A stretch of DNA of 64,000 bases, taken from Eledone cirrhosa (taxonomy: Eukaryota). Below, piece by piece: positions 1,213-55,533 of the stretch. The first letter of the stretch is position 1; each line of letters begins with the position of its first letter. The DNA lies in contig OZ024742.1 of the NCBI GenBank assembly GCA_964016885.1, forward strand, positions 257,238,001 through 257,302,000. The letters run 5' to 3'. The notes below the pieces were generated by a model that made no database searches, was not told where the DNA came from, and saw only the letters and a list, made by a program, of their open reading frames with translations. Position numbers and translations under genes: made by a program.

Positions 1213-1710
1213 TTAGATACAATAAGAGGGTATAAAGTCTAAGTATATGCAGTTTGTCAGTTGGTAGTAAGTGTTCGTTTTGCACTTGTTGTGCGAACAC
1301 TTTTCTTTGAGTCTATGGTTACATTGAATTGATCTTTCGATTTTATTGTTGAGTAACTTATTCTTTGAACTCAAAATGTGGAACAGCTCAAGATCACATA
1401 ATCGACAGCTTCTCATACCACTCCGATATGGAGGCGCGTTCGATAATCTGTTTCCACTTCAGGGTGTATTGATGGTTACTTTCCCTCAGTTGCCAGGTCT
1501 TGTTTGCAAGGGTAGTTACATAAGGATGCTGGGAATGTTTCATTGCGTAACGGTGTGTATACCAACGGGCTTTAAATGTATTCCCAGTCGCTCCGATGTA
1601 ATAACATTTCTGGTTGTCTGATTCTACTGTGCATAGGTAAACCAGGTTAGACTGTATACATTCATTATGTAATGGACAGGTTTCAGGTAGGTGGCAGTTA
1701 CAATTCTTGT
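1213..1710 (-). pseudogene. GIY-YIG endonuclease domain of the PLE
   Basis: Manual translation NCNCHLPETCPLHNECIQSNLVYLCTVESDNQKCYYIGATGNTFKARWYTHR, and C-terminal CRLCDLELFHIL...LLNNKIE...CNH (ORF 1213..1416). Confidence 0.88.
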
Positions 1711-2031
1711 CATGGGCTACTTTGGCATTATGGTGGGCTGCGATGCCTGTACAAGTGTGTTACGTTTTGTGTGCCTATTAGTGGGTGGCTGTATATTAGA
1801 TATTCTGTTGAGTTGAATGGTGATTGTATTGTTATTGTTGTAAATTTGTGTTCTGGTGTTGTTATGTATCTTTTTAGCGTGAAGCATCTTAATGTGTGCC
1901 TCTATATTTGGTGCCGTGGAGTAAGATTGTCAAATAGATTTAGCGTTACGGATTTTGCTCTATCTATGTGGATCTGGAAAGTGATTATTTATTATTCTAA
2001 AGAAGGTAGAGGGTAGGTTAGTACCCTGGAG

Positions 2032-3195
2032 TTAAATATGGGTGTTAAATATGGGGTTATACCAAATATATTTTCTACTGCGTGAATTGTTTGATTTCGA
2101 TGTTGTATTTCTATTTACAGTATACTTTGTAGTTCTATGCGTAAGTGCGCGTGTGTGTGTGTTTCTGGAGTTTGTGTTATGCGTGTTCGTTTGCGCTTTG
2201 CGGAGGCTTTCATCTATATATTCTACTCTATCTAAGTGGCCTGCCTTGTCTAATGCGGTATTGTAGTAATCAGCATGTTCCTCGACCATTTGTCGGTTAG
2301 ACGAGAGGCAAGAGATCCTAAGGGGTATACTGCGTGGAATGGATTTAATTATGGATAGTGGGTGGTTTGAGTTACAGTTGATGTATGCTAAGTTTTCATT
2401 AATTTTGTGAAAGGGTCTTATAAGTCCTGTATTTAGGTTAAGCGTCGCGTCTACAAAGTTAACTGTTTTAGTGCTAAACGCATACGTTATTCTAAGGCCT
2501 AGTTTCCCGAGAGTATTTCTAATATTCTTACGGAGTCTTTCTATGCTCTGATTATTTAGGTTCTTTACTAGAAGGGCGTCGTCTCTGTAGATTCCACCTT
2601 GAAGGTCGCTAAACTCACTCTGTAAATGATGGGCTATGTAAATACCTACTAAATCTGTGACTTGAGCCGAGTCGTTAGCCCCCATCGTGATGTCAAAGTT
2701 ATTTAATCTATCCTTACGTTCCCAATAGGCGTTTTCAAATTGAATTATTGTTTTCCTAGCAGCTAATATGATTTTTATCTCGTCATCTGTTAGGTCAGAA
2801 TTGGCTTTGGAGAATGCTAAGGCTTTATTCAAGGTCTTGTGGGATATAGAGGAGTAATAGTCATTAAGGTCAAATTGTATACATTCAGATACTTTTTTGT
2901 TAGCTATATTGTTAAACCACTTAATTGTTTCGGTAGCCTTACCCCATAGTTTAATCACTAGTTTATTCTTCATTTGTGCTATCCCTCTATCTAATATATA
3001 TTTACTAATTTTCCCGATGTCCGATTTGGATGTGCATATAAGTCTAATTGTGGGGTTATAATCAAAATTTACCTTGTGGTCCTTGAGATTTAATGCGGGG
3101 GTACAAGGCCTAAATGGCTCCGTTCTGTCGTCTATTGCTAGATGTTTGACTATATTGTGTGCCTTGTTGTTGATGTTTATCAGTGCCGCCTCATT
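2032..3195 (-). pseudogene. PLE reverse transcriptase (probably Hydra-type clade), disrupted
   Basis: LKDHKVNFDYNPTIRLICTSKSDIGKISKYILD, QFDLNDYYSSI, FDITMGANDSAQVTDLVG, GIYRDDAL, VNFVDATLNL, YINCNSNHP, IWYNP; stop at 2032. Confidence 0.9.
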
Positions 3196-3977: not shown

Positions 3978-4038
<61 letters not shown>

Positions 4039-16607: not shown

Positions 16608-16614
<7 letters not shown>

Positions 16615-17180
16615 GATAAGCAGAACAAGTAAAATTCAATCAATTTTTCAAAATACATTAAAAAATATAATATAAATATTTACCTCTTCTAGTGGCCCTT
16701 ACTGATCAGTTTCGCTCTGTAAAACCTCATAAATCCGATGGATTTATGATGGAAAACCAAAGCTCATCAGAGAAGCATTTTCCCTCCCTAGGGCTAAACG
16801 TCCCAGGAACGACACAATATACAACCTCCTGCCAACTAATAAAGGTCTGAAAGGTCGTAAAATTGATTTTGTCGTTCCTGGGACGTTTAGCCCTAGGAAG
16901 GGAAAATGCTTCTCTGATGAGCTTTGGTTTTCCATCATAAATCCATCGGATTTATGAGGTTTTACAGAGCGAAACTGATCAGTAAGGGCCACTAGAAGAG
17001 GTAAATATTTATATTATATTTTTTAATGTATTTTGAAAAATTGATTGAATTTTACTTGTTCTGCTTATCTTAATATTAAAGTTCTGGTGTATCAAATTAA
17101 CACCATTGAACAACCTTGAATCATAGACAACCTATGTATTTTTAGGGGTACCTAGTATCCCTGGACATATTAACTTCTAC
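16608..17180. mobile_element. Non-coding HHR element inserted as a head-to-head inverted pair in (TA)n
   Basis: Arms 16608-16814 and 16870-17076 (about 207 bp, 1 mismatch seen), 55-bp spacer; right copy extends to about 17180. Confidence 0.9.
16908..16989 (+). ncRNA. Type I hammerhead ribozyme with extended stem II (mirror copy on minus strand 16695-16776)
   Basis: CTGATGA 16914-16920; stem II GCTTTG/CAGAGC enclosing hairpin TCATAAATCC/GGATTTATGA; GAAA 16971-16974; palindromic ACTGATCAGT; GTA 16982-16984; stem I weak. Confidence 0.75.
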
Positions 17181-21071: not shown

Positions 21072-21140
<69 letters not shown>

Positions 21141-21430
21141 GAATGTATATATAGTGTATTTTGCAATACACTGTATTCATAATTAAAAGCATTTCGAGGA
21201 CATTACGCTATTGTTTTAGAGTCTTGACAGTTTCACTTACTTAACATTTTCAGCAAACAGGGGAGATACATTTGACATTGCTCTGTTTCGTAGTGATTGG
21301 TGCTTATCACTACTTTAAAACAATAGCGTAAGGTCTTGGAAATGCTTTTAATGAAGCATAAAGTGTATTGAAAAATACACTATATATACATGCATATATA
21401 TATCGCTATTTCAGAGCACCAATTCTAATA
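21141..21430. mobile_element. Old inverted-pair relic homologous to the 310-bp monomer
   Basis: 21141-21222 is the reverse complement of 21312-21393; 21323-21429 aligns to the 310-mer (ATAGCG..AGGTCTT..ATATATCGCTATTTCAGAGCA); (TA)n on both sides. Confidence 0.75.
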
Positions 21431-21562
21431 TATATATATATATATATTTTTTTTTCTTGTTTTAAATTTTAATCCAAATACAAAAGCTATTGTTATTTAC
21501 AGTAATTCTGTGTTTTGTTTCGTCCTTTTCAAATCTCAAATCCTCCGATAGACTCGATAAAC

Positions 21563-26822: not shown

Positions 26823-26964
26823 TCGAATTGGTGTGGTATAGACAGGTACACATGTTGTTGAAGTGTTTAACTCCGTCAATGCACCGATATGCCCAGTTCC
26901 TGGTTGGCTTATACAGACGTAGAGTAGTATGTATATACATACATACATTCACGCATATATATAT

Positions 26965-27138
26965 GTACGTATGGGATTACCGAACATTTATTATAATGTT
27001 CGGTTTGTTTGTAAACAAACAGCACGAATTAAGCCGTACAGTATTCGGCAACCATCATTGCCCTTTTGTTCAAAACTGACAAATGAACGATGAACTAGTT
27101 TCTAGCTTATTAGCTGTCATCAGCACCGTATACCTTCC

Positions 27139-27183
<45 letters not shown>

Positions 27184-27540
27184 CATGTATGTATATATAT
27201 ACATACTACTGTACGTCTGATACATATATGTATGTACGTATACATACTAACATTTAAGTATCAGCCGTACTATTTTTTCCATTTTTTCCATTTATCGTTT
27301 TCGGTACGCCCGGCCGACTAACTCACTCGATATGCAAACTAGGCTGCTCAGCCGTTACCATGTATAAGGAAAGTATACAGTGCTGATGACAGATAATAAG
27401 CTAGAAACTAGTTCATCGTTCCTGTGTCAGTGTTGAACAAAAGGTCAACGATGGTTGTCGAACACTGTACAGCTTAATTCGGGCTGATTGTTTACAAACA
27501 AACCGAATATTATAATACATGTTCGGTAAACCCATACGTA
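26965..27540. mobile_element. Head-to-head inverted pair of an about 180-bp HHR element
   Basis: About 26965-27143 is the reverse complement of about 27360-27540; HHR at 27088-27128 (minus) CGGTG-CTGATGA-CAGC TAATAA GCTA-GAAA-CTAG-TT-CATCG, and at 27378-27418 (plus). Confidence 0.8.
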
Positions 27541-27641
27541 TATATATATATATGTGTGTATGTATGTATGTATATACATACTACTGTACGTCTGTATACA
27601 TATATGTATGTACGTATACATACTTACATATATATATATCC

Positions 27642-41581: not shown

Positions 41582-42130
41582 CGGTTTTAACCCTCGGAGT
41601 GTTAAGTTTGAAGAACGCCCTAACTATTGGTGTAGATACCTCTCGGCTGAAGGGGTGGAGTGTTGTACCAAGTAAATTGCCAATTCTTATTTCTTCTAAG
41701 TGGTCTTGGGTTTTGTTTTAGACAGGTAATCTTTTCTTTGAAGCCACTGTTGGAAAGGGCTTCGTTATAATAAGGGGAAGAGCTGTAAGAAGGTCTTCAT
41801 TGGCTGAGAGACCAGAGATTCTAAGTGAGACACTTTTAACTAAATTATCAGTAATAATTCTGGGGTGGTTTGAACTAACATCAATGTATCTAAGTGATTC
41901 GTTAAGTTTGTGGTAATAGAGGGAATATCTAAATCTAAAGTGACATCTAAAATGTTGGCCCTGGTCATATTTGATTCTATGGGTATTCTAAAACCTAGAT
42001 TACGGAAAAACCATCTTAAGTTTTTCCCAAACCCATCCCAATAACCATCTGCCCTACCACCAGACAATGTATAAGTACCACGATATCACTTTGACAGTCG
42101 GCTTTCCTGATGATTCCCTTCGAGTGAAAT
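41580..42130 (-). mobile_element. Decayed PLE RT fragment related to the 426-3982 element
   Basis: ANILDVTLDL, YIDVSSNHP, LRISGLSANE..PYYNEAL remnants. Confidence 0.75.
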
Positions 42131-42267: not shown

Positions 42268-42312
<45 letters not shown>

Positions 42313-42469
42313 TGGAATAAATGCTCTGAAATAGCGATATATATGTGAATATAGACATAGAATATTCGAAAATATTCTGTATGTTTATAATAAACATTTT
42401 GAAGACCTAATCGCTATAGAATAGAATACGTCACGTATTACAATTAGATTCTCGATAAAAGCAAGGGAA

Positions 42470-42512
42470 GTAATCTACGCGTTTCATTCTTGTTAGAATT
42501 CATCAGGACTAC
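42470..42512 (-). ncRNA. Same hammerhead on the minus strand; copies at 42780, 43090, 43400
   Basis: Exact reverse complement of 43868-43910. Confidence 0.92.
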
Positions 42513-43867
42513 ATATCCAGTGCTTTTATCGAGAATGACACAGCTAGAGACTTATAGAATACTTAGCTGTGTACAGGAACTGGTTTGAAAGAGCGGTTGC
42601 CGGTCCGGCAGAAATTAGAAATTGGAATAAATGCTCTGAAATAGCGATATATATGTGAATATAGACATAGAATATTCGAAAATATTCTGTATGTTTATAA
42701 TAAACATTTTGAAGACCTAATCGCTATAGAATAGAATACGTCACGTATTACAATTAGATTCTCGATAAAAGCAAGGGAAGTAATCTACGCGTTTCATTCT
42801 TGTTAGAATTCATCAGGACTACATATCCAGTGCTTTTATCGAGAATGACACAGCTAGAGACTTATAGAATACTTAGCTGTGTACAGGAACTGGTTTGAAA
42901 GAGCGGTTGCCGGTCCGGCAGAAATTAGAAATTGGAATAAATGCTCTGAAATAGCGATATATATGTGAATATAGACATAGAATATTCGAAAATATTCTGT
43001 ATGTTTATAATAAACATTTTGAAGACCTAATCGCTATAGAATAGAATACGTCACGTATTACAATTAGATTCTCGATAAAAGCAAGGGAAGTAATCTACGC
43101 GTTTCATTCTTGTTAGAATTCATCAGGACTACATATCCAGTGCTTTTATCGAGAATGACACAGCTAGAGACTTATAGAATACTTAGCTGTGTACAGGAAC
43201 TGGTTTGAAAGAGCGGTTGCCGGTCCGGCAGAAATTAGAAATTGGAATAAATGCTCTGAAATAGCGATATATATGTGAATATAGACATAGAATATTCGAA
43301 AATATTCTGTATGTTTATAATAAACATTTTGAAGACCTAATCGCTATAGAATAGAATACGTCACGTATTACAATTAGATTCTCGATAAAAGCAAGGGAAG
43401 TAATCTACGCGTTTCATTCTTGTTAGAATTCATCAGGACTACATATCCAGTGCTTTTATCGAGAATGACACAGCTAGAGACTTATAGAATACTTAGCTGT
43501 GTACAGGAACTGGTTTGAAAGAGCGGTTGCCGGTCCGGCAGAAATTAGAAATTGGAATAAATGCTCTGAAATAGCGATATATATGTGAATATAGACATAG
43601 AATATTCGAAAATATTCTGTATGTTTATAATAAACATTTTGAAGACCTAATCGCTATAGAATAGAATACGTCACGTTTATTATAAACATACAGAATATTT
43701 TCGAATATTCTATGTCTATATTCACATATATATCGCTATTTCAGAGCATTTATTCCAATTTCTAATTTCTGCCGGACCGGCAACCGCTCTTTCAAACCAG
43801 TTCCTGTACACAGCTAAGTATTCTATAAGTCTCTAGCTGTGTCATTCTCGATAAAAGCACTGGATAT

Positions 43868-43910
43868 GTAGTCCTGATGAATTCTAACAAGAATGAAACG
43901 CGTAGATTAC
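43868..43910 (+). ncRNA. Minimal type I hammerhead; identical copies at 44178, 44488, 44798, 45108, 45418, 45728, 46038
   Basis: GTAGTC-CTGATGA-ATTCT AACA AGAAT-GAAA-CGCG-TA-GATTAC; predicted cleavage after 43904 (GUA); enclosed by a 16-bp stem ATTCTCGATAAAAGCA/TGCTTTTATCGAGAAT. Confidence 0.92.
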
Positions 43911-46236
43911 TTCCCTTGCTTTTATCGAGAATCTAATTGTAATACGTGACGTATTCTATTCTATAGCGATTAGGTCTTCAAAATGTTTATTATAAACATA
44001 CAGAATATTTTCGAATATTCTATGTCTATATTCACATATATATCGCTATTTCAGAGCATTTATTCCAATTTCTAATTTCTGCCGGACCGGCAACCGCTCT
44101 TTCAAACCAGTTCCTGTACACAGCTAAGTATTCTATAAGTCTCTAGCTGTGTCATTCTCGATAAAAGCACTGGATATGTAGTCCTGATGAATTCTAACAA
44201 GAATGAAACGCGTAGATTACTTCCCTTGCTTTTATCGAGAATCTAATTGTAATACGTGACGTATTCTATTCTATAGCGATTAGGTCTTCAAAATGTTTAT
44301 TATAAACATACAGAATATTTTCGAATATTCTATGTCTATATTCACATATATATCGCTATTTCAGAGCATTTATTCCAATATCTAATTTCTGCCGGACCGG
44401 CAACCGCTCTTTCAAACCAGTTCCTGTACACAGCTAAGTATTCTATAAGTCTCTAGCTGTGTCATTCTCGATAAAAGCACTGGATATGTAGTCCTGATGA
44501 ATTCTAACAAGAATGAAACGCGTAGATTACTTCCCTTGCTTTTATCGAGAATCTAATTGTAATACGTGACGTATTCTATTCTATAGCGATTAGGTCTTCA
44601 AAATGTTTATTATAAACATACAGAATATTTTCGAATATTCTATGTCTATATTCACATATATATCGCTATTTCAGAGCATTTATTCCAATTTCTAATTTCT
44701 GCCGGACCGGCAACCGCTCTTTCAAACCAGTTCCTGTACACAGCTAAGTATTCTATAAGTCTCTAGCTGTGTCATTCTCGATAAAAGCACTGGATATGTA
44801 GTCCTGATGAATTCTAACAAGAATGAAACGCGTAGATTACTTCCCTTGCTTTTATCGAGAATCTAATTGTAATACGTGACGTATTCTATTCTATAGCGAT
44901 TAGGTCTTCAAAATGTTTATTATAAACATACAGAATATTTTCGAATATTCTATGTCTATATTCACATATATATCGCTATTTCAGAGCATTTATTCCAATT
45001 TCTAATTTCTGCCGGACCGGCAACCGCTCTTTCAAACCAGTTCCTGTACACAGCTAAGTATTCTATAAGTCTCTAGCTGTGTCATTCTCGATAAAAGCAC
45101 TGGATATGTAGTCCTGATGAATTCTAACAAGAATGAAACGCGTAGATTACTTCCCTTGCTTTTATCGAGAATCTAATTGTAATACGTGACGTATTCTATT
45201 CTATAGCGATTAGGTCTTCAAAATGTTTATTATAAACATACAGAATATTTTCGAATATTCTATGTCTATATTCACATATATATCGCTATTTCAGAGCATT
45301 TATTCCAATTTCTAATTTCTGCCGGACCGGCAACCGCTCTTTCAAACCAGTTCCTGTACACAGCTAAGTATTCTATAAGTCTCTAGCTGTGTCATTCTCG
45401 ATAAAAGCACTGGATATGTAGTCCTGATGAATTCTAACAAGAATGAAACGCGTAGATTACTTCCCTTGCTTTTATCGAGAATCTAATTGTAATACGTGAC
45501 GTATTCTATTCTATAGCGATTAGGTCTTCAAAATGTTTATTATAAACATACAGAATATTTTCGAATATTCTATGTCTATATTCACATATATATCGCTATT
45601 TCAGAGCATTTATTCCAATTTCTAATTTCTGCCGGACCGGCAACCGCTCTTTCAAACCAGTTCCTGTACACAGCTAAGTATTCTATAAGTCTCTAGCTGT
45701 GTCATTCTCGATAAAAGCACTGGATATGTAGTCCTGATGAATTCTAACAAGAATGAAACGCGTAGATTACTTCCCTTGCTTTTATCGAGAATCTAATTGT
45801 AATACGTGACGTATTCTATTCTATAGCGATTAGGTCTTCAAAATGTTTATTATAAACATACAGAATATTTTCGAATATTCTATGTCTATATTCACATATA
45901 TATCGCTATTTCAGAGCATTTATTCCAATTTCTAATTTCTGCCGGACCGGCAACCGCTCTTTCAAACCAGTTCCTGTACACAGCTAAGTATTCTATAAGT
46001 CTCTAGCTGTGTCATTCTCGATAAAAGCACTGGATATGTAGTCCTGATGAATTCTAACAAGAATGAAACGCGTAGATTACTTCCCTTGCTTTTATCGAGA
46101 ATCTAATTGTAATACGTGACGTATTCTATTCTATAGCGATTAGGTCTTCAAAATGTTTATTATAAACATACAGAATATTTTCGAATATTCTATGTCTATA
46201 TATATATATATATATATAGGCAGCATGACCCTCCCA

Positions 46237-46269: not shown

Positions 46270-47050
46270 CACCATGAGGTTTTCACTTCAAATTGTTATA
46301 AATTGCTGGTTGTTTGGTTGGTTCGATAACCGAATGGTTATTTATTAACGCTCTCTCGTCACACATCATGTGACCTCCTCAGTGACTACGTATTTGTTTT
46401 GTGTCTCTACTTTGTTCTGTCCTACACCATCTTGTTTCTGTGTGTTGTTTGATGTATGCTTAGTTTGCGCATGCGTTACATCCGGGTGTGTATGTGTGTC
46501 TGTTTATTTATTTATTTATGTGTTTATTTACTTGTCACTACTTGTTTTTTTTTTGTTCTATCTCTTTGTGTCTGATTTGTTTTGTTAGTTTGGTTTTAGT
46601 GTGTGTGTCTGTAAATCTTCGTGTTTTCCTTAATTACTAGTCCTGGTGTTTCTATAGCACTCATGTTTTCTGTTTAATTTTGGTTGGATTTCGTTTATGT
46701 TTGTCGGCTCTGTAGTTTGACTGAACATTGCAATTATTCTGTGTGGGCATATAATTCTCTAATGTGCTGCCTTTGGTCTATTTTGGCATGTTAGTGGAGT
46801 TCTTGTGAGTTTTTCCCCTCCTGGAGTTCTCACCAGTGTTCACTTATCCTTTCTCCTATGCTACAGGCTGTTTCACCTATGTATATTAGGTTCTTATTCC
46901 TACAGTGTCTCTCAGTATATATTATGCTATATACCACGGTCCTAGTTTTGCAGGTAGTTTGCAGGCTTAGCTTGGAGACTATGCATTTCTTATCAGTGCA
47001 GGCGGATCTATAAACTCCAGTATTTGAAGAACTCATCAGTACTCCAGTAA
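46270..47050 (-). mobile_element. PLE 3' fragment (GIY-YIG + 3' UTR)
   Basis: CKTRTVVYSIIY..CRNKNLIYIGETACSIGERISEH (ORF 46830..47036); degenerate HHR CTGAGGA-GGTCACA..TGTGAC-GAGA at about 46350-46389. Confidence 0.85.
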
Positions 47051-48223
47051 CATATTTCTAACTGTCTGCCTTGTCACACATTGCCACCCTTAATCTACTA
47101 ATCTATATGTGAATTATATTAAACTTACGCATATTTCAGGTATGCTCAGAAATGTGTATATTAAATACATGATACGGCTTTTGCATTGTTCGGAAATATC
47201 ATCGCTGTAACAGATGGAATTCCATTTTATTCCATTTGAGTTTTAATACAAACATTCACAGCAACGAAATTCAAAGACACACACTCACATAGCTATTGGA
47301 GTGTGTGTGTATGTGCATTTATTCATATGTGTGTGTGTGTATGTGCATTTATTCATATGTGTGTGTGTATGTTTATTTGTGTGTGTGTGTGCCTGTATGT
47401 ATGCATGTATGCATGAGGAATGTTTTCATTGTTTGTCTGTGTGTATGTGTATGTGGTTGTGTGTGTATTTTTAAGTTAATGTGTTTGTGTGTGACTGCCT
47501 TTGTATGTGCGTGTTTATATGTTTGTGAGATTGTATATGTGTTTGCATAAAGGAATATTCTAAACATTACTAAAGCAACACATCATATATCCTCCCTCCA
47601 TCGTTCCATATTCCAGGTTGCATTAGTTGATGTAATCCAACATAACTAACATTAACATTAACAGAAAAATGTCATGAAATTTCAGGAACATCGATAAATT
47701 TCCATTAGATTCTGTTGAATGCACCTTCTTCCCTCTTCTTCCATCTTCCTTTTACGTCTTGAAATCTTGTCTAAGGTGAAGAAATGCCATCAGAGCTAGA
47801 CGGTATAATGGACCTCTATCAAGTTGATGTGATTCAAATATAATACTTTTTCACCCAGAAATAGAAATGAAATAGGTTGAATTTGATGTCGACATAAGGC
47901 GCCGAATACACTTTCATCTCTCTTTCACTTTTCTTAGATTTGTTATTTCTAATTATATTTTTGGAGTATTACTTTTTTATTTTAATTTTCATTTATATTA
48001 TTTCCCTGCTATGATGGAAATGTTGTACTCGTTCTCGTTATTTCTTTGGTGGAGGGGCTTATAAAATATCCATTTATATTTTCGATAGTTTATTTTAGCA
48101 TGGAAAGTCAATAGAAAATCTAACAACAACACAGTCTAAAGTTAGTATTTAAATATACACCCTTGAATAACTCAGTGTCTGTCTGCTCAGCTGAATCTGT
48201 AAAACTACTGTGTGTATTATTTA

Positions 48224-53830: not shown

Positions 53831-54215
53831 ATAATGTAGCGGAAATAATTCAGTGTCAGTTTTATAAGAGATATGATTCACAGAAAAGATCTTTGGTTAC
53901 TTTGTTGGAATAGAAAAGGAAGTTTTAGAATACAAGGAAGTGAAATAGCTATGGGACTTTCTCCATAGAAACTGAGAGTAAAATAGGGCATAACAATCAG
54001 GATATTGTAGTCGTTGGTTGGAAGAAGAATCTGGTAATTGATATAGCATGCCGGATACCAGAGTTAAAAATATAATGACATCCGTAATATATAATATCCT
54101 GAACTACTGAATACAAGAAGGTGACGATATCTATGTGTTTTGTTATCATCGGAGCTTCAGGAACTGTGACAAGGAACTTAAAAGTGAACCTTGGAAAGCT
54201 GGACCTTAATTTGGG
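53825..54215 (+). mobile_element. R4/Dong-like RLE non-LTR fragment
   Basis: RHDNVAEII, VLEYKEVK*LWDF, IGHNNQDIVVV, LVIDIAC, VIIGASGTV. Confidence 0.8.
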
Positions 54216-54226
54216 AATAGATGACA

Positions 54227-54620
54227 GCTATTAACAACACAGAAGTACTTTAATTGGAGCGAGAGGACAGTTATTGACAATATAGAAGGACCTTAATAGG
54301 GGAGAGAGAGAGATGACAGCTATTAACAACGCAGAAGGACTTTAATTGGAGCGAGAGGACATCTATTAACAACATAGAAGGACCTTAATAGGGGAGAGAG
54401 GACAGCTGTTAACAATGTAGAATGACCTTAATAGGGGAGAGAGGACAGCTGTTAATAATATAGAAGGACCTTAATAGGGGAGAGAGGACAGCTGTTAATA
54501 ATATAGAAGGACCTTAATAGGGGAGAGAGGACAGCTGTTAATAATATAGAAGGACCTTAATAGGGGAGAGAGGACAGCTGTTAATAATATAGAAGGACCT
54601 TAATAGGGGAGAGAGGACAG
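54227..54620 (+). repeat. 43-bp minisatellite (about 9 units); inverted copies at about 55030-55100 and 55345-55490
   Basis: Unit GAAGGACCTTAATAGGGGAGAGAGGACAGCTGTTAATAATATA. Confidence 0.92.
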
Positions 54621-54758
54621 CATGGAGTTGCTGCCCTTTATCGTCTGAGTTCGGATCCCGCCGAGGTTGGCTTTGTCTTTCATCCTTGCGGGGTCGATGG
54701 AGTGGGGTACCAGTGGTGCGCTGGGTAGTTGCTGGTCAAAAGTAGAAACAATTATTTA
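54618..54758 (+). mobile_element. SINE copy with clustered A-to-G substitutions
   Basis: GATAAAATAAAGTACCAGTAATGCAC in other copies reads GATGGAGTGGGGTACCAGTGGTGCGC here. Confidence 0.85.
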
Positions 54759-54843: not shown

Positions 54844-55533
54844 GTAGTTGTCAAATTCTGGGGTTGATGAGATCGACTCCCTACCATAACATTTACCGAC
54901 CTTGTGCCCAAATTAGAAATCATCATTAGTTTTGCTGTTGCTGTTGCTGTTGTTGTTGTTACACGGTATTGAACTTGTGGTTGTAATAAGTACACTTCCT
55001 ACCAGACCACAACTCATGGTCTAGGACGAGAAATATCTCTCCTATAAAGGTCCTTCTGTATTGTTAATAGCTGTCCTCTCTCTCCTATTGAAGTCCTTCT
55101 GTAAAGACATTATTGGGGGAGACTTAGCTGATCACCGAAACCCAACCACAACAGTATCTTCTGATGTACAAAGGTGCATCAGGAAGCAATGTCCAACTCT
55201 CGGAGGCTGAGGTCACAAGAACAACTTAAGAGCTCAAATGTGGCAAAGCATCTAGGAAGGGTGAGAGTTGGCCAGAGATGTTAAAAGCCTTATATAGAGA
55301 AGGTATTTTCTAGCTGATTCATGTGCGCCAGGTCTCCTGAATCTCTGGTCCTTCTATATTGTTAATAGCTGTCCTCTCTCCCCTATTAAGGTCCTTCTGT
55401 AGTGTTACTAGATGTCGTCTCTCCCCTGTTAAGGTCCTTCTATATTGTTAACAGTTGTCCTCTCTCCCATATTAAGGTCCTTCTATGTTATATATATATA
55501 TACATATATATATACACACACATACATATATAC

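What the first reader, a model, noticed from the sequence alone, without database searches (positions are those of the whole stretch)
42306..46201. Pristine 310-bp hammerhead tandem array: candidate cephalopod non-LTR retrozyme / self-cleaving circRNA
Seen: about 12.6 almost identical non-coding 310-bp units, each full unit with a complete minimal type I HHR (CTGATGA, 5-bp stem II, GAAA, palindromic ACGCGT stem III, GUA site, 6-bp stem I) inside a 16-bp stem. Established: minimal HHRs with palindromic stem III occur in PLE pseudo-LTRs and cleave as dimers, and metazoan non-LTR retrozymes are tandem HHR repeats of a few hundred bp that yield circRNAs. Inference: transcripts self-process into 310-nt monomers or circles, and near-identity indicates a very recent insertion. 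I do not recognise this family as described.
Basis: partly seen in the sequence, partly recalled or inferred. Interest (0 to 1): 0.9.

Follow-up and report, generated by a model that had tools for sequence, protein, structure and literature searches.

The report
Two-armed retrozyme copied from edited RNA
This repeat is one of an estimated two thousand young copies of a protein-free jumping element with a predicted self-cutting RNA motif, sitting in TA repeats as two back-to-back arms, and A-to-G changes repeated in every unit of some sister copies suggest that each insertion was likely copied round and round from one edited RNA circle by a Penelope-type enzyme.

Summary
The array and its hammerhead are real, but it is not a plain tandem: 4.4 units lie on the minus strand and 8.2 on the plus strand, head to head, with both outer ends fused to (TA)n. 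The genome holds 18,158 such hammerheads in an estimated 2,000 loci. Of 100 sister insertions, 95 have the same two arms; where readable (94 of 94) the second end lies about 35 nt from the first, the known Penelope 'inverted copy plus tail' signature. Both arms share one haplotype in 76 of 79 cases. Array-wide private changes are mostly A>G on the ribozyme strand (14 of 26, against 10 of 100 single-unit changes); two such sites occur in 811 and 834 units, against 7, 13 and 2 for controls. Best reading: a non-LTR retrozyme (known class) inserted by priming from both cut target strands, likely on one A-to-I-edited monomer circle. Cleavage, expression, circles and the partner enzyme are untested; some arrays point to multimer templates. 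This scan had already noted this family and the editing reading on other DNA of this genome.

The parts
42271..42307 (.). (TA)n target tract fused to the left outer end
42306..43676 (-). left arm, 4.42 units, 4 hammerheads; RNA-sense 3' end at unit position 90 (site B class, carries the 'tail'); 5' end at unit position 270
43675..43676 (.). inversion junction, 2-nt overlap between the two 5'-truncated arms
43675..46201 (+). right arm, 8.15 units, 8 hammerheads; 3' end at unit position 47 (site A class). Unit position 1 = window 43675 throughout this report
43692..43711 (+). 8-bp hairpin with UUCG loop just 5' of site A; 2 of 8 pairs change on both sides in the sister family and the loop becomes GCAA; inferred RT-recognition element
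43721..43733 (+). priming zone A (unit 47-59), first unit shown
43759..43764 (+). priming zone B (unit 85-90), first unit shown
43844..43932 (+). 16-bp stem (43844-43859 with 43917-43932) enclosing the hammerhead; holds the recurrent A>G sites 179 (43853) and 250; 8 of 16 pairs change on both sides in the sister family
43868..43910 (+). type I hammerhead of the first plus unit; predicted cleavage 43904/43905; recurrent A>G site 196 (43870) in stem I; repeats every 310 bp
46202..46218 (.). (TA)n target tract fused to the right outer end
41718..42085 (-). broken relic of an older PLE reverse transcriptase flanking the insertion; not part of the element
46830..47057 (-). broken relic of a PLE GIY-YIG endonuclease (Pfam PF01541, E 0.0099, below cut-off); not part of the element

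Best explanation
This is one young insertion of a dispersed, protein-free family of 310-bp hammerhead repeats, built as two head-to-head arms in a TA tract, and it was likely made by a Penelope-like RT/GIY-YIG enzyme priming from both cut target strands on one RNA monomer, probably a circle that was sometimes A-to-I edited. Shown: dispersal, two-arm structure, two fixed 3' end zones 26-38 nt apart (modal ends 50 and 85), TA targets, random inner junctions with microhomology, shared haplotype of both arms, and array-wide A>G excess on the ribozyme strand. Inferred: arrays are transcribed; neighbouring hammerheads pair through the ACGCGU palindrome and cut at 230/231; the monomer is ligated to a circle; ADAR edits its stems; a PLE protein (Hydra-type candidates are active here) binds near the UUCG hairpin, cuts (TA)n on both strands and starts cDNA at site B from one strand and at site A from the other; both run round the template several times; the two cDNA ends are joined by end joining, giving the inversion. 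A minority of insertions likely use multimer templates.
For: Dispersal: 2,528 exact 43-mers, 18,158 with 4 free positions, 1,001 exact site-B/TA junctions, 1,987 forward TA-fused ends. Unselected set (window plus first 9 arrays): 9 of 10 inverted, 19 of 19 outer ends in zones A or B, although 3-nt or longer TA microhomology exists at 32 places around the unit. Set selected on a site-B end, all 100 listed: 95 inverted, partner end at 44-59 in 94 of 94 readable. This matches the inverted 5'-truncated copy and one-ended 30-40 bp tail of PLEs (PMC8557442) and the two internal RT starts and two-strand cleavage and extension of the Anolis PLE protein (PMC11167929). Coding PLE copies here show the same two-arm, two-site form (L043, L073). 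One non-TA site shows a 12-nt duplication (L034). Arms concordant in 76 of 79, permutation mean 8.6, maximum 19, 28 haplotypes. Array-wide private substitutions: A>G 14 of 26 events, 7 of 19 sites, against 10 of 100 single-unit changes (Fisher p 5e-6 and 0.006). 179A>G 811 units against 7 for its pairing partner 249T>C and 13 for the wobble control 175C>T; 196A>G 834 against 2 for 234T>C. All readable units carry the change in 8 of 8 listed 179G arrays and 11 of 13 listed 196G arrays, on at least 5 haplotype backgrounds each. No non-fixed indel at 228-233 in 1,095 crossings of the cut site.
Against: No expression, cleavage or circle was observed. The ribozyme has A-U (62 of 87 arrays: U.U) at 10.1-11.1 instead of G-C, scores under Rfam's cut-off, and 8 of 9 predicted Xenopus retrozyme dimers did not cleave in vitro (10.64898/2026.07.22.740005); the Anolis PLE does not need its hammerhead for insertion (PMC11167929). 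L070 and L085 carry a change in the same unit number of both arms, and L063 and L211 are mosaics for 196G, which a single monomer cannot give. Event-level A>G against T>C is 14:3 versus 10:10, p 0.08. Unit counts of 811 and 834 are inflated by inheritance; backgrounds can also arise by recombination; A>G in an A-U pair is tolerated as G.U whereas T>C is not, and only one wobble control was counted genome-wide. The absence of fixed changes at 12 core positions is not significant (about 1 expected). No coding PLE with a similar pLTR was found in two active families.
Confidence: 0.65

Rival explanations
1. Same Penelope-type twin priming, but the usual template is an uncut linear multimer transcribed from parent arrays; the hammerhead is weak or dispensable and circles are rare or absent.
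For: In-register shared changes in L070 and L085, mosaics in L063 and L211; inner junctions show no pile-up at the cut site (5 of 182, 6.5 expected), which also fits a circle; weak ribozyme; unprocessed RNA is the main substrate for the Anolis PLE (PMC11167929).
Against: A change in one unit of a linear multimer stays in one unit. 28 haplotypes fixed across whole arrays, and all-or-none A>G on several backgrounds, need a repeated monomer-to-multimer step. Only 2 in-register events against 55 single-arm changes in the span that both arms cover.
Confidence: 0.15
2. The monomer-to-multimer step is real but is not reverse transcription round a covalent circle: either RNA-to-RNA rolling replication comes first, or the RT jumps across the nick of a cut monomer held closed by its stems.
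For: Gives the same all-or-none pattern; stem I and the 16-bp stem would hold the cut ends together; RNA-RNA replication is raised for mussel retrozymes (PMC7229834, passage).
Against: No scar at the cut site in 1,095 crossings argues against error-prone jumps; the excess is A>G on one strand, with no matching T>C excess that an edited antisense intermediate would leave.
Confidence: 0.13
3. DNA-level satellite: arrays grow and homogenise by slippage, unequal exchange and conversion, inversions come from repair, and A>G survives only because G.U is tolerated.
For: Long arms show repeated non-adjacent variants that fit local duplication (L054, L055, L074/L179, L174-L177).
Against: Does not explain fixed A and B ends in 94 of 94, TA targeting, the same form in coding PLEs, or the wobble control 175C>T staying at 13 scattered units although C>T is the commonest single-unit change.
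Confidence: 0.05
4. Assembly artefact (fold-back chimeras, collapsed repeats).
For: Near-perfect identity; the window's own junction was not bridged in the listed contig pieces of three public runs, which proves nothing either way.
Against: Locus-specific haplotypes shared by both arms, fixed asymmetric ends, and unit-to-TA junctions at positions 59 and 90 in an independent short-read assembly X2.
Confidence: 0.02

Closest known systems
Metazoan non-LTR retrozymes (Cervera and de la Pena 2020, PMC7229834: passages and part 4 of 6 read; Li, Clavereau and Pollet 2026, bioRxiv 10.64898/2026.07.22.740005: parts 1-3 of 5 read, supplements closed)
   Same: Non-coding, low-GC (34%) tandem units of about 300 bp, each with a type I hammerhead; short palindromic helix III as in axolotl HHR_Amex1; U.U at the base of helix II in the major haplotype as in HHR_Amex2; PLEs proposed as mobilisers and circles as RT templates.
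   Different: In the text I read neither paper reports head-to-head arms, fixed priming sites, TA targeting or editing marks ('inverted' 0 times in PMC7229834). Their cleavage and circles were shown by experiment; here they are not.
Penelope-like elements, Hydra clade by motif (Craig et al. 2021, PMC8557442: passages and section 11; Frangieh et al. 2024, PMC11167929: parts 1-2 of 4; Cervera and de la Pena 2014, PMC4209133: passages)
   Same: Inverted 5'-truncated copy, 30-40 bp tail at one end only, two internal RT starts near a stem-loop, (TA)n targets, hammerhead predicted to work as a dimer.
   Different: No ORF. Many full units per arm. No sequence similarity to the pLTRs of the two active families examined (821- and 830-codon open frames; the first has RWT, DKT and CxCX5C, the second RWR and DKT; no phylogeny was run).
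LINE-1 twin priming (recalled, not read)
   Same: Both target strands prime cDNA on the RNA and the products join by microhomology, giving an inversion.
   Different: Here it is the rule (95 of 100), both starts are internal and fixed, there is no poly(A), and each arm can exceed the monomer many times.

Membership tests
Non-LTR retrozyme | Tandem units of 150-450 bp, each with a type I hammerhead | tested here: met
   310 bp, 12 of 12 full cores
Non-LTR retrozyme | Non-coding, GC under about 45-50%, no LTRs | tested here: met
   No frame over about 60 codons; 106 of 310 G+C; no LTR-type repeats round the array. PBS and PPT were not searched
Non-LTR retrozyme | Dispersed through the genome | tested here: met
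Non-LTR retrozyme | Target-site duplication over 4 bp when present | tested here: inconclusive
   12 nt in 1 of 9 flank pairs inspected (L034); not measurable in TA tracts
Non-LTR retrozyme | Self-cleavage of the transcript | not testable with these tools
   needs in vitro transcription
Non-LTR retrozyme | Expressed as linear and circular monomer RNA | not testable with these tools
   no run on record as RNA was available; only indirect genomic marks
Type I hammerhead | CUGANGA and GAAA core, UH cleavage site, stems I and II | tested here: met
Type I hammerhead | G10.1-C11.1 pair (highly conserved per PMC4209133) | tested here: not met
   A-U here, U.U in 62 of 87 arrays; lowers expected activity, but U.U occurs in a published retrozyme (PMC7229834)
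Type I hammerhead | Short palindromic helix III allowing a dimer | tested here: met
   6-bp self-duplex, -7.5 kcal/mol
Type I hammerhead | Rfam gathering score | tested here: not met
   HH9 23 bits against 52
Type I hammerhead | Loop 1-loop 2 tertiary contact | not tested
   not modelled
Autonomous PLE | ORF with RT and GIY-YIG | tested here: not met
   none in the unit; inner junctions of 95 of 100 sisters join another arm
PLE-mobilised element (works like) | Inverted 5'-truncated copy | tested here: met
   95 of 100 selected, 9 of 10 unselected
PLE-mobilised element (works like) | 30-40 bp tail at one end only | tested here: met
   ends at 44-59 and 85; 94 of 94
PLE-mobilised element (works like) | (TA)n target as in Hydra and Naiad clades | tested here: met
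PLE-mobilised element (works like) | Homology to the pLTR of a coding PLE | tested here: inconclusive
   none in 30 + 30 loci of two active families; other families not sampled

The most novel reading that the evidence does not exclude
Each insertion is a fossil of one RNA molecule: a Penelope-type enzyme opens a TA tract, starts two cDNAs 35 nt apart on a single 310-nt ribozyme circle and rolls round it from both sides, so A-to-I edits made on that circle are written into every unit of both arms and become heritable haplotypes of the family. That would be genomic evidence for rolling-circle reverse transcription of retrozymes and a direct explanation of the PLE inverted-copy-plus-tail structure.
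Probability: 0.55. Interest if true: 0.75.

Novelty: new variant of a known kind. Interest (0 to 1): 0.6.

Why it matters
Retrozyme papers propose that a PLE reverse transcriptase copies RNA circles into tandem DNA but do not show it, and PLE papers call the origin of inverted copies and one-ended tails unresolved. This family gives about two thousand nearly unmutated records of the reaction, with fixed start sites, a small defined template and candidate enzymes with intact frames in the same genome, so both questions can be tested in vitro. It would also show RNA editing feeding back into germline DNA through a mobile element.

Tried and rejected
DNA search of the unit in the own genome gave nothing because common words are skipped; patterns were used instead. 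No RNA holder listed among public runs: no evidence on expression either way. Contigs of X2, X4, X5 and X1 laid on the window's inversion junction showed no bridging piece among those listed; a hole proves nothing. Partner PLE: the unit was compared with masked flanks of 81 loci plus the window and with 30 loci each of two active PLE families; no pLTR similarity, and an apparent match of about 130 nt between cut site and end in the 821-codon family was dropped because its two ends are about 90 nt apart. Folding z-scores do not tell the strands apart (-4.5 sense, -4.7 antisense). A core-like motif at 42107 lies antisense in the old RT relic and was set aside as chance. Pfam found nothing in the 590-aa PLE fragment. 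Sequence look-up in earlier findings returned nothing. Literature searches; none listed a paper on cephalopod retrozymes, two-armed retrozyme insertions or editing marks fixed in such arrays. The Octopus vulgaris repeat annotation PMC13282606 has no 'ribozyme' or 'editing' in its main text (passages only). No supplements were read; those of the bioRxiv preprint are closed and could hold related structures. Rows left out of counts: 13 of 101 elements (100 plus the window) had under 3 copies of some position, plus 1 more under that rule, leaving 87; 12 common variants of unknown polarity (including 215A>G and 232A>G) were excluded from the private-event count; L145, L147 and L051 were trimmed 100 nt at the junction; outer ends of L042, L056 and L084 were set by hand; L148 is cut by the fetch; 16 of 95 pairs with an arm under 330 bp were left out of the concordance test.

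Full report
Observation. Tandem Repeats Finder splits the region into two arrays of period 310: 42306-43676 and 43675-46213. They are reverse complements. The left arm has 4.42 units with the hammerhead on the minus strand, the right arm 8.15 units (exact end 46201) with it on the plus strand; they meet at a 2-nt overlap and each outer end runs into (TA)n. There is one mismatch in 3.9 kb. I number the unit from window 43675. Rfam HH9 matches all 12 units weakly (23 bits, gathering 52). Pair 10.1-11.1 is A-U, not the G-C that PMC4209133 calls highly conserved.

Family. A 43-mer over the ribozyme occurs 2,528 times and a version with four free positions 18,158 times, about 0.19% of the genome if each stands for a unit; reversed controls give 0. 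Ends fused to TA number 1,987 on the forward strand, and 1,001 ends are exactly at unit position 85, so I estimate about 2,000 loci. Non-fixed differences are 95 in 197,027 bp, so the family is very young; I did not date it. An independent short-read assembly holds the unit at very high depth with TA-fused ends at 59 and 90 (X2).

Insertion anatomy. In an unselected set (the window and the first 9 arrays) 9 of 10 are inverted and 19 of 19 outer ends fall in two zones, 46-59 (A) and 74-90 (B), one of each per two-armed element. I then fetched all 100 site-B ends listed. 95 have an opposed partner arm; the partner ends in zone A in 94 of 94 readable cases; of the other five, one abuts an N run and four are single arms. 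TA microhomology of 3 nt or more exists at 32 places round the unit, so sequence match alone does not pick these sites. Inner junctions are spread evenly (chi-square p 0.14; 5 of 182 near the cut site, 6.5 expected); of 90 junctions 53 overlap by 1-6 nt, 1 by 16, 8 are blunt and 28 have short insertions. One element in a non-TA site has a 12-nt duplication (L034). Craig et al. (PMC8557442) describe this for PLEs: an inverted 5'-truncated copy and a 30-40 bp tail at one end, with (TA)n targets for Hydra and Naiad. Frangieh et al. (PMC11167929) show that a PLE protein cuts and extends both strands and starts at two internal sites that bound the tail. Coding PLEs with intact 821- and 830-codon frames and 97-100% identical copies exist here; the first has Hydra-type motifs and two of its copies show the two-arm, two-site form. 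Neither pLTR resembles the unit, so the partner is not identified.

Conserved RNA structure. A sister family of about 321 bp (67% identity; L094, L105, window 21131-21434) has the same two-arm form. It keeps the hairpin 5' of site A with 2 of 8 pairs changed on both sides and the enclosing stem with 8 of 16 pairs changed on both sides (gapless comparison with one L094 unit). In the present family fixed changes in the ribozyme fall at the free core position 7 (two different bases), loop II, the 10.1 position and stem I, none at 12 invariant positions, though that last count is too small to be significant.

Template. Both arms carry the same haplotype in 76 of 79 elements with two arms of 330 bp or more (permutation mean 8.6, maximum 19 in 10,000; 28 haplotypes; one of the three exceptions is an alignment overrun). 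In 87 elements, private substitutions present in every unit are A>G on the ribozyme strand in 14 of 26 events (a site counted once per backbone haplotype) and 7 of 19 sites, against 10 of 100 single-unit changes (p 5e-6 and 0.006). A>G against C>T is 14:1 versus 10:16 (p 8e-4); A>G against T>C is 14:3 versus 10:10 (p 0.08). Most of these sites are A-U pairs in predicted stems, and 179, 196, 250 and 38 have a 5' U, which fits ADAR preference as I recall it. Genome-wide, 179G is in 811 units, its pairing partner 249C (same context on the other strand) in 7, and 175T, which also makes a G.U pair in that stem, in 13 scattered units; 196G is in 834 units and 234C in 2. The first 100 matches of each fall in 8 and 13 arrays with no isolated unit; I read all 21 (one in part): every readable unit is changed in 8 of 8 and 11 of 13, on five or more backgrounds each. 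An edit is made on one unit of RNA; to appear in all units of both arms it must pass through a step in which one monomer is copied repeatedly. No non-fixed indel lies at 228-233 in 1,095 crossings, which favours a ligated circle over jumps across a nick.

Against a pure circle model. L070 and L085 share a change at the same unit number in both arms, L063 and L211 are mosaics, and long arms repeat variants at irregular or multi-unit spacing. So some templates are multimers and some arrays rearrange after insertion. Inheritance inflates the unit counts, recombination can mimic recurrence, and selection for G.U is only partly controlled. The window's own array carries no such edit; the evidence comes from sisters. 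Cleavage and circles are not shown, and only 1 of 9 predicted Xenopus dimers cleaved in the 2026 preprint.

Verdict. It works like a PLE-mobilised non-LTR retrozyme and meets every sequence-level feature of that class that I could test, apart from the weak stem II closing pair; the two experimental features are open. The class and the PLE link are published; the two-arm signature and the editing marks were not in what I read or in five searches. I reached this reading before opening the scan's notes (notebook); the notes show the same family and the same editing reading on other DNA of this genome, which is neither support nor a discount. New variant of a known kind; interest 0.6.

Noticed in passing
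window 21131-21434; L094 3917-4719; L105 2919-3414: Sister retrozyme of about 321 bp, 67% identical, two-armed in TA, with a U3-A8 variant core and a longer helix III.
   Followed up: partly
window 26932-27574; L046, L057, L087, L094, L127, L139: A third hammerhead repeat family with an ACUAGU palindrome, in opposed arms; its ribozyme is the closest to this one (about 75% over 37 nt).
   Followed up: partly
window 16608-17076: 211-bp arms, 99% complementary, beside (TA)38; likely a short two-armed PLE-type insertion.
   Followed up: no
window 1445-3015 (-): Broken PLE RT and GIY-YIG, about 44% identical to the 821-codon family over the RT, with an opposed arm ending in TA near 4000.
   Followed up: partly
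window 54201-54621 and 55347-55486: 43-bp minisatellite with a second block in the opposite orientation ending at a TA tract.
   Followed up: no
runs X1, X3, X6 laid on window 43675-43984: Three runs coded as other organisms hold the unit as one closed 340-nt contig at depth 12-34; X1 and X3 match the window haplotype exactly, which is the minority form at 207 in X2. Run type is not on record and a tandem array also closes on itself, so this is unexplained, not evidence of a circle.
   Followed up: partly
G000 loci L112-L141 and L180-L209: Two abundant, apparently active PLE families with 821- and 830-codon open frames and palindromic-helix-III hammerheads in their pLTRs.
   Followed up: partly
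window 44380; L095: The array's only mismatch (unit 86 T>A) recreates the first letter of the site-B/TA junction; the same single change occurs in L095. It may record a restart or be chance.
   Followed up: no
L074/L179, L054/L178, L055: Arms of 19 to more than 40 units with variants repeated at irregular or 7-unit spacing, suggesting local amplification or multimer templates.
   Followed up: partly
L163 5666-5788: The inner junction holds 123 nt of repeated short unit-derived words, like slippage synthesis during end joining.
   Followed up: no
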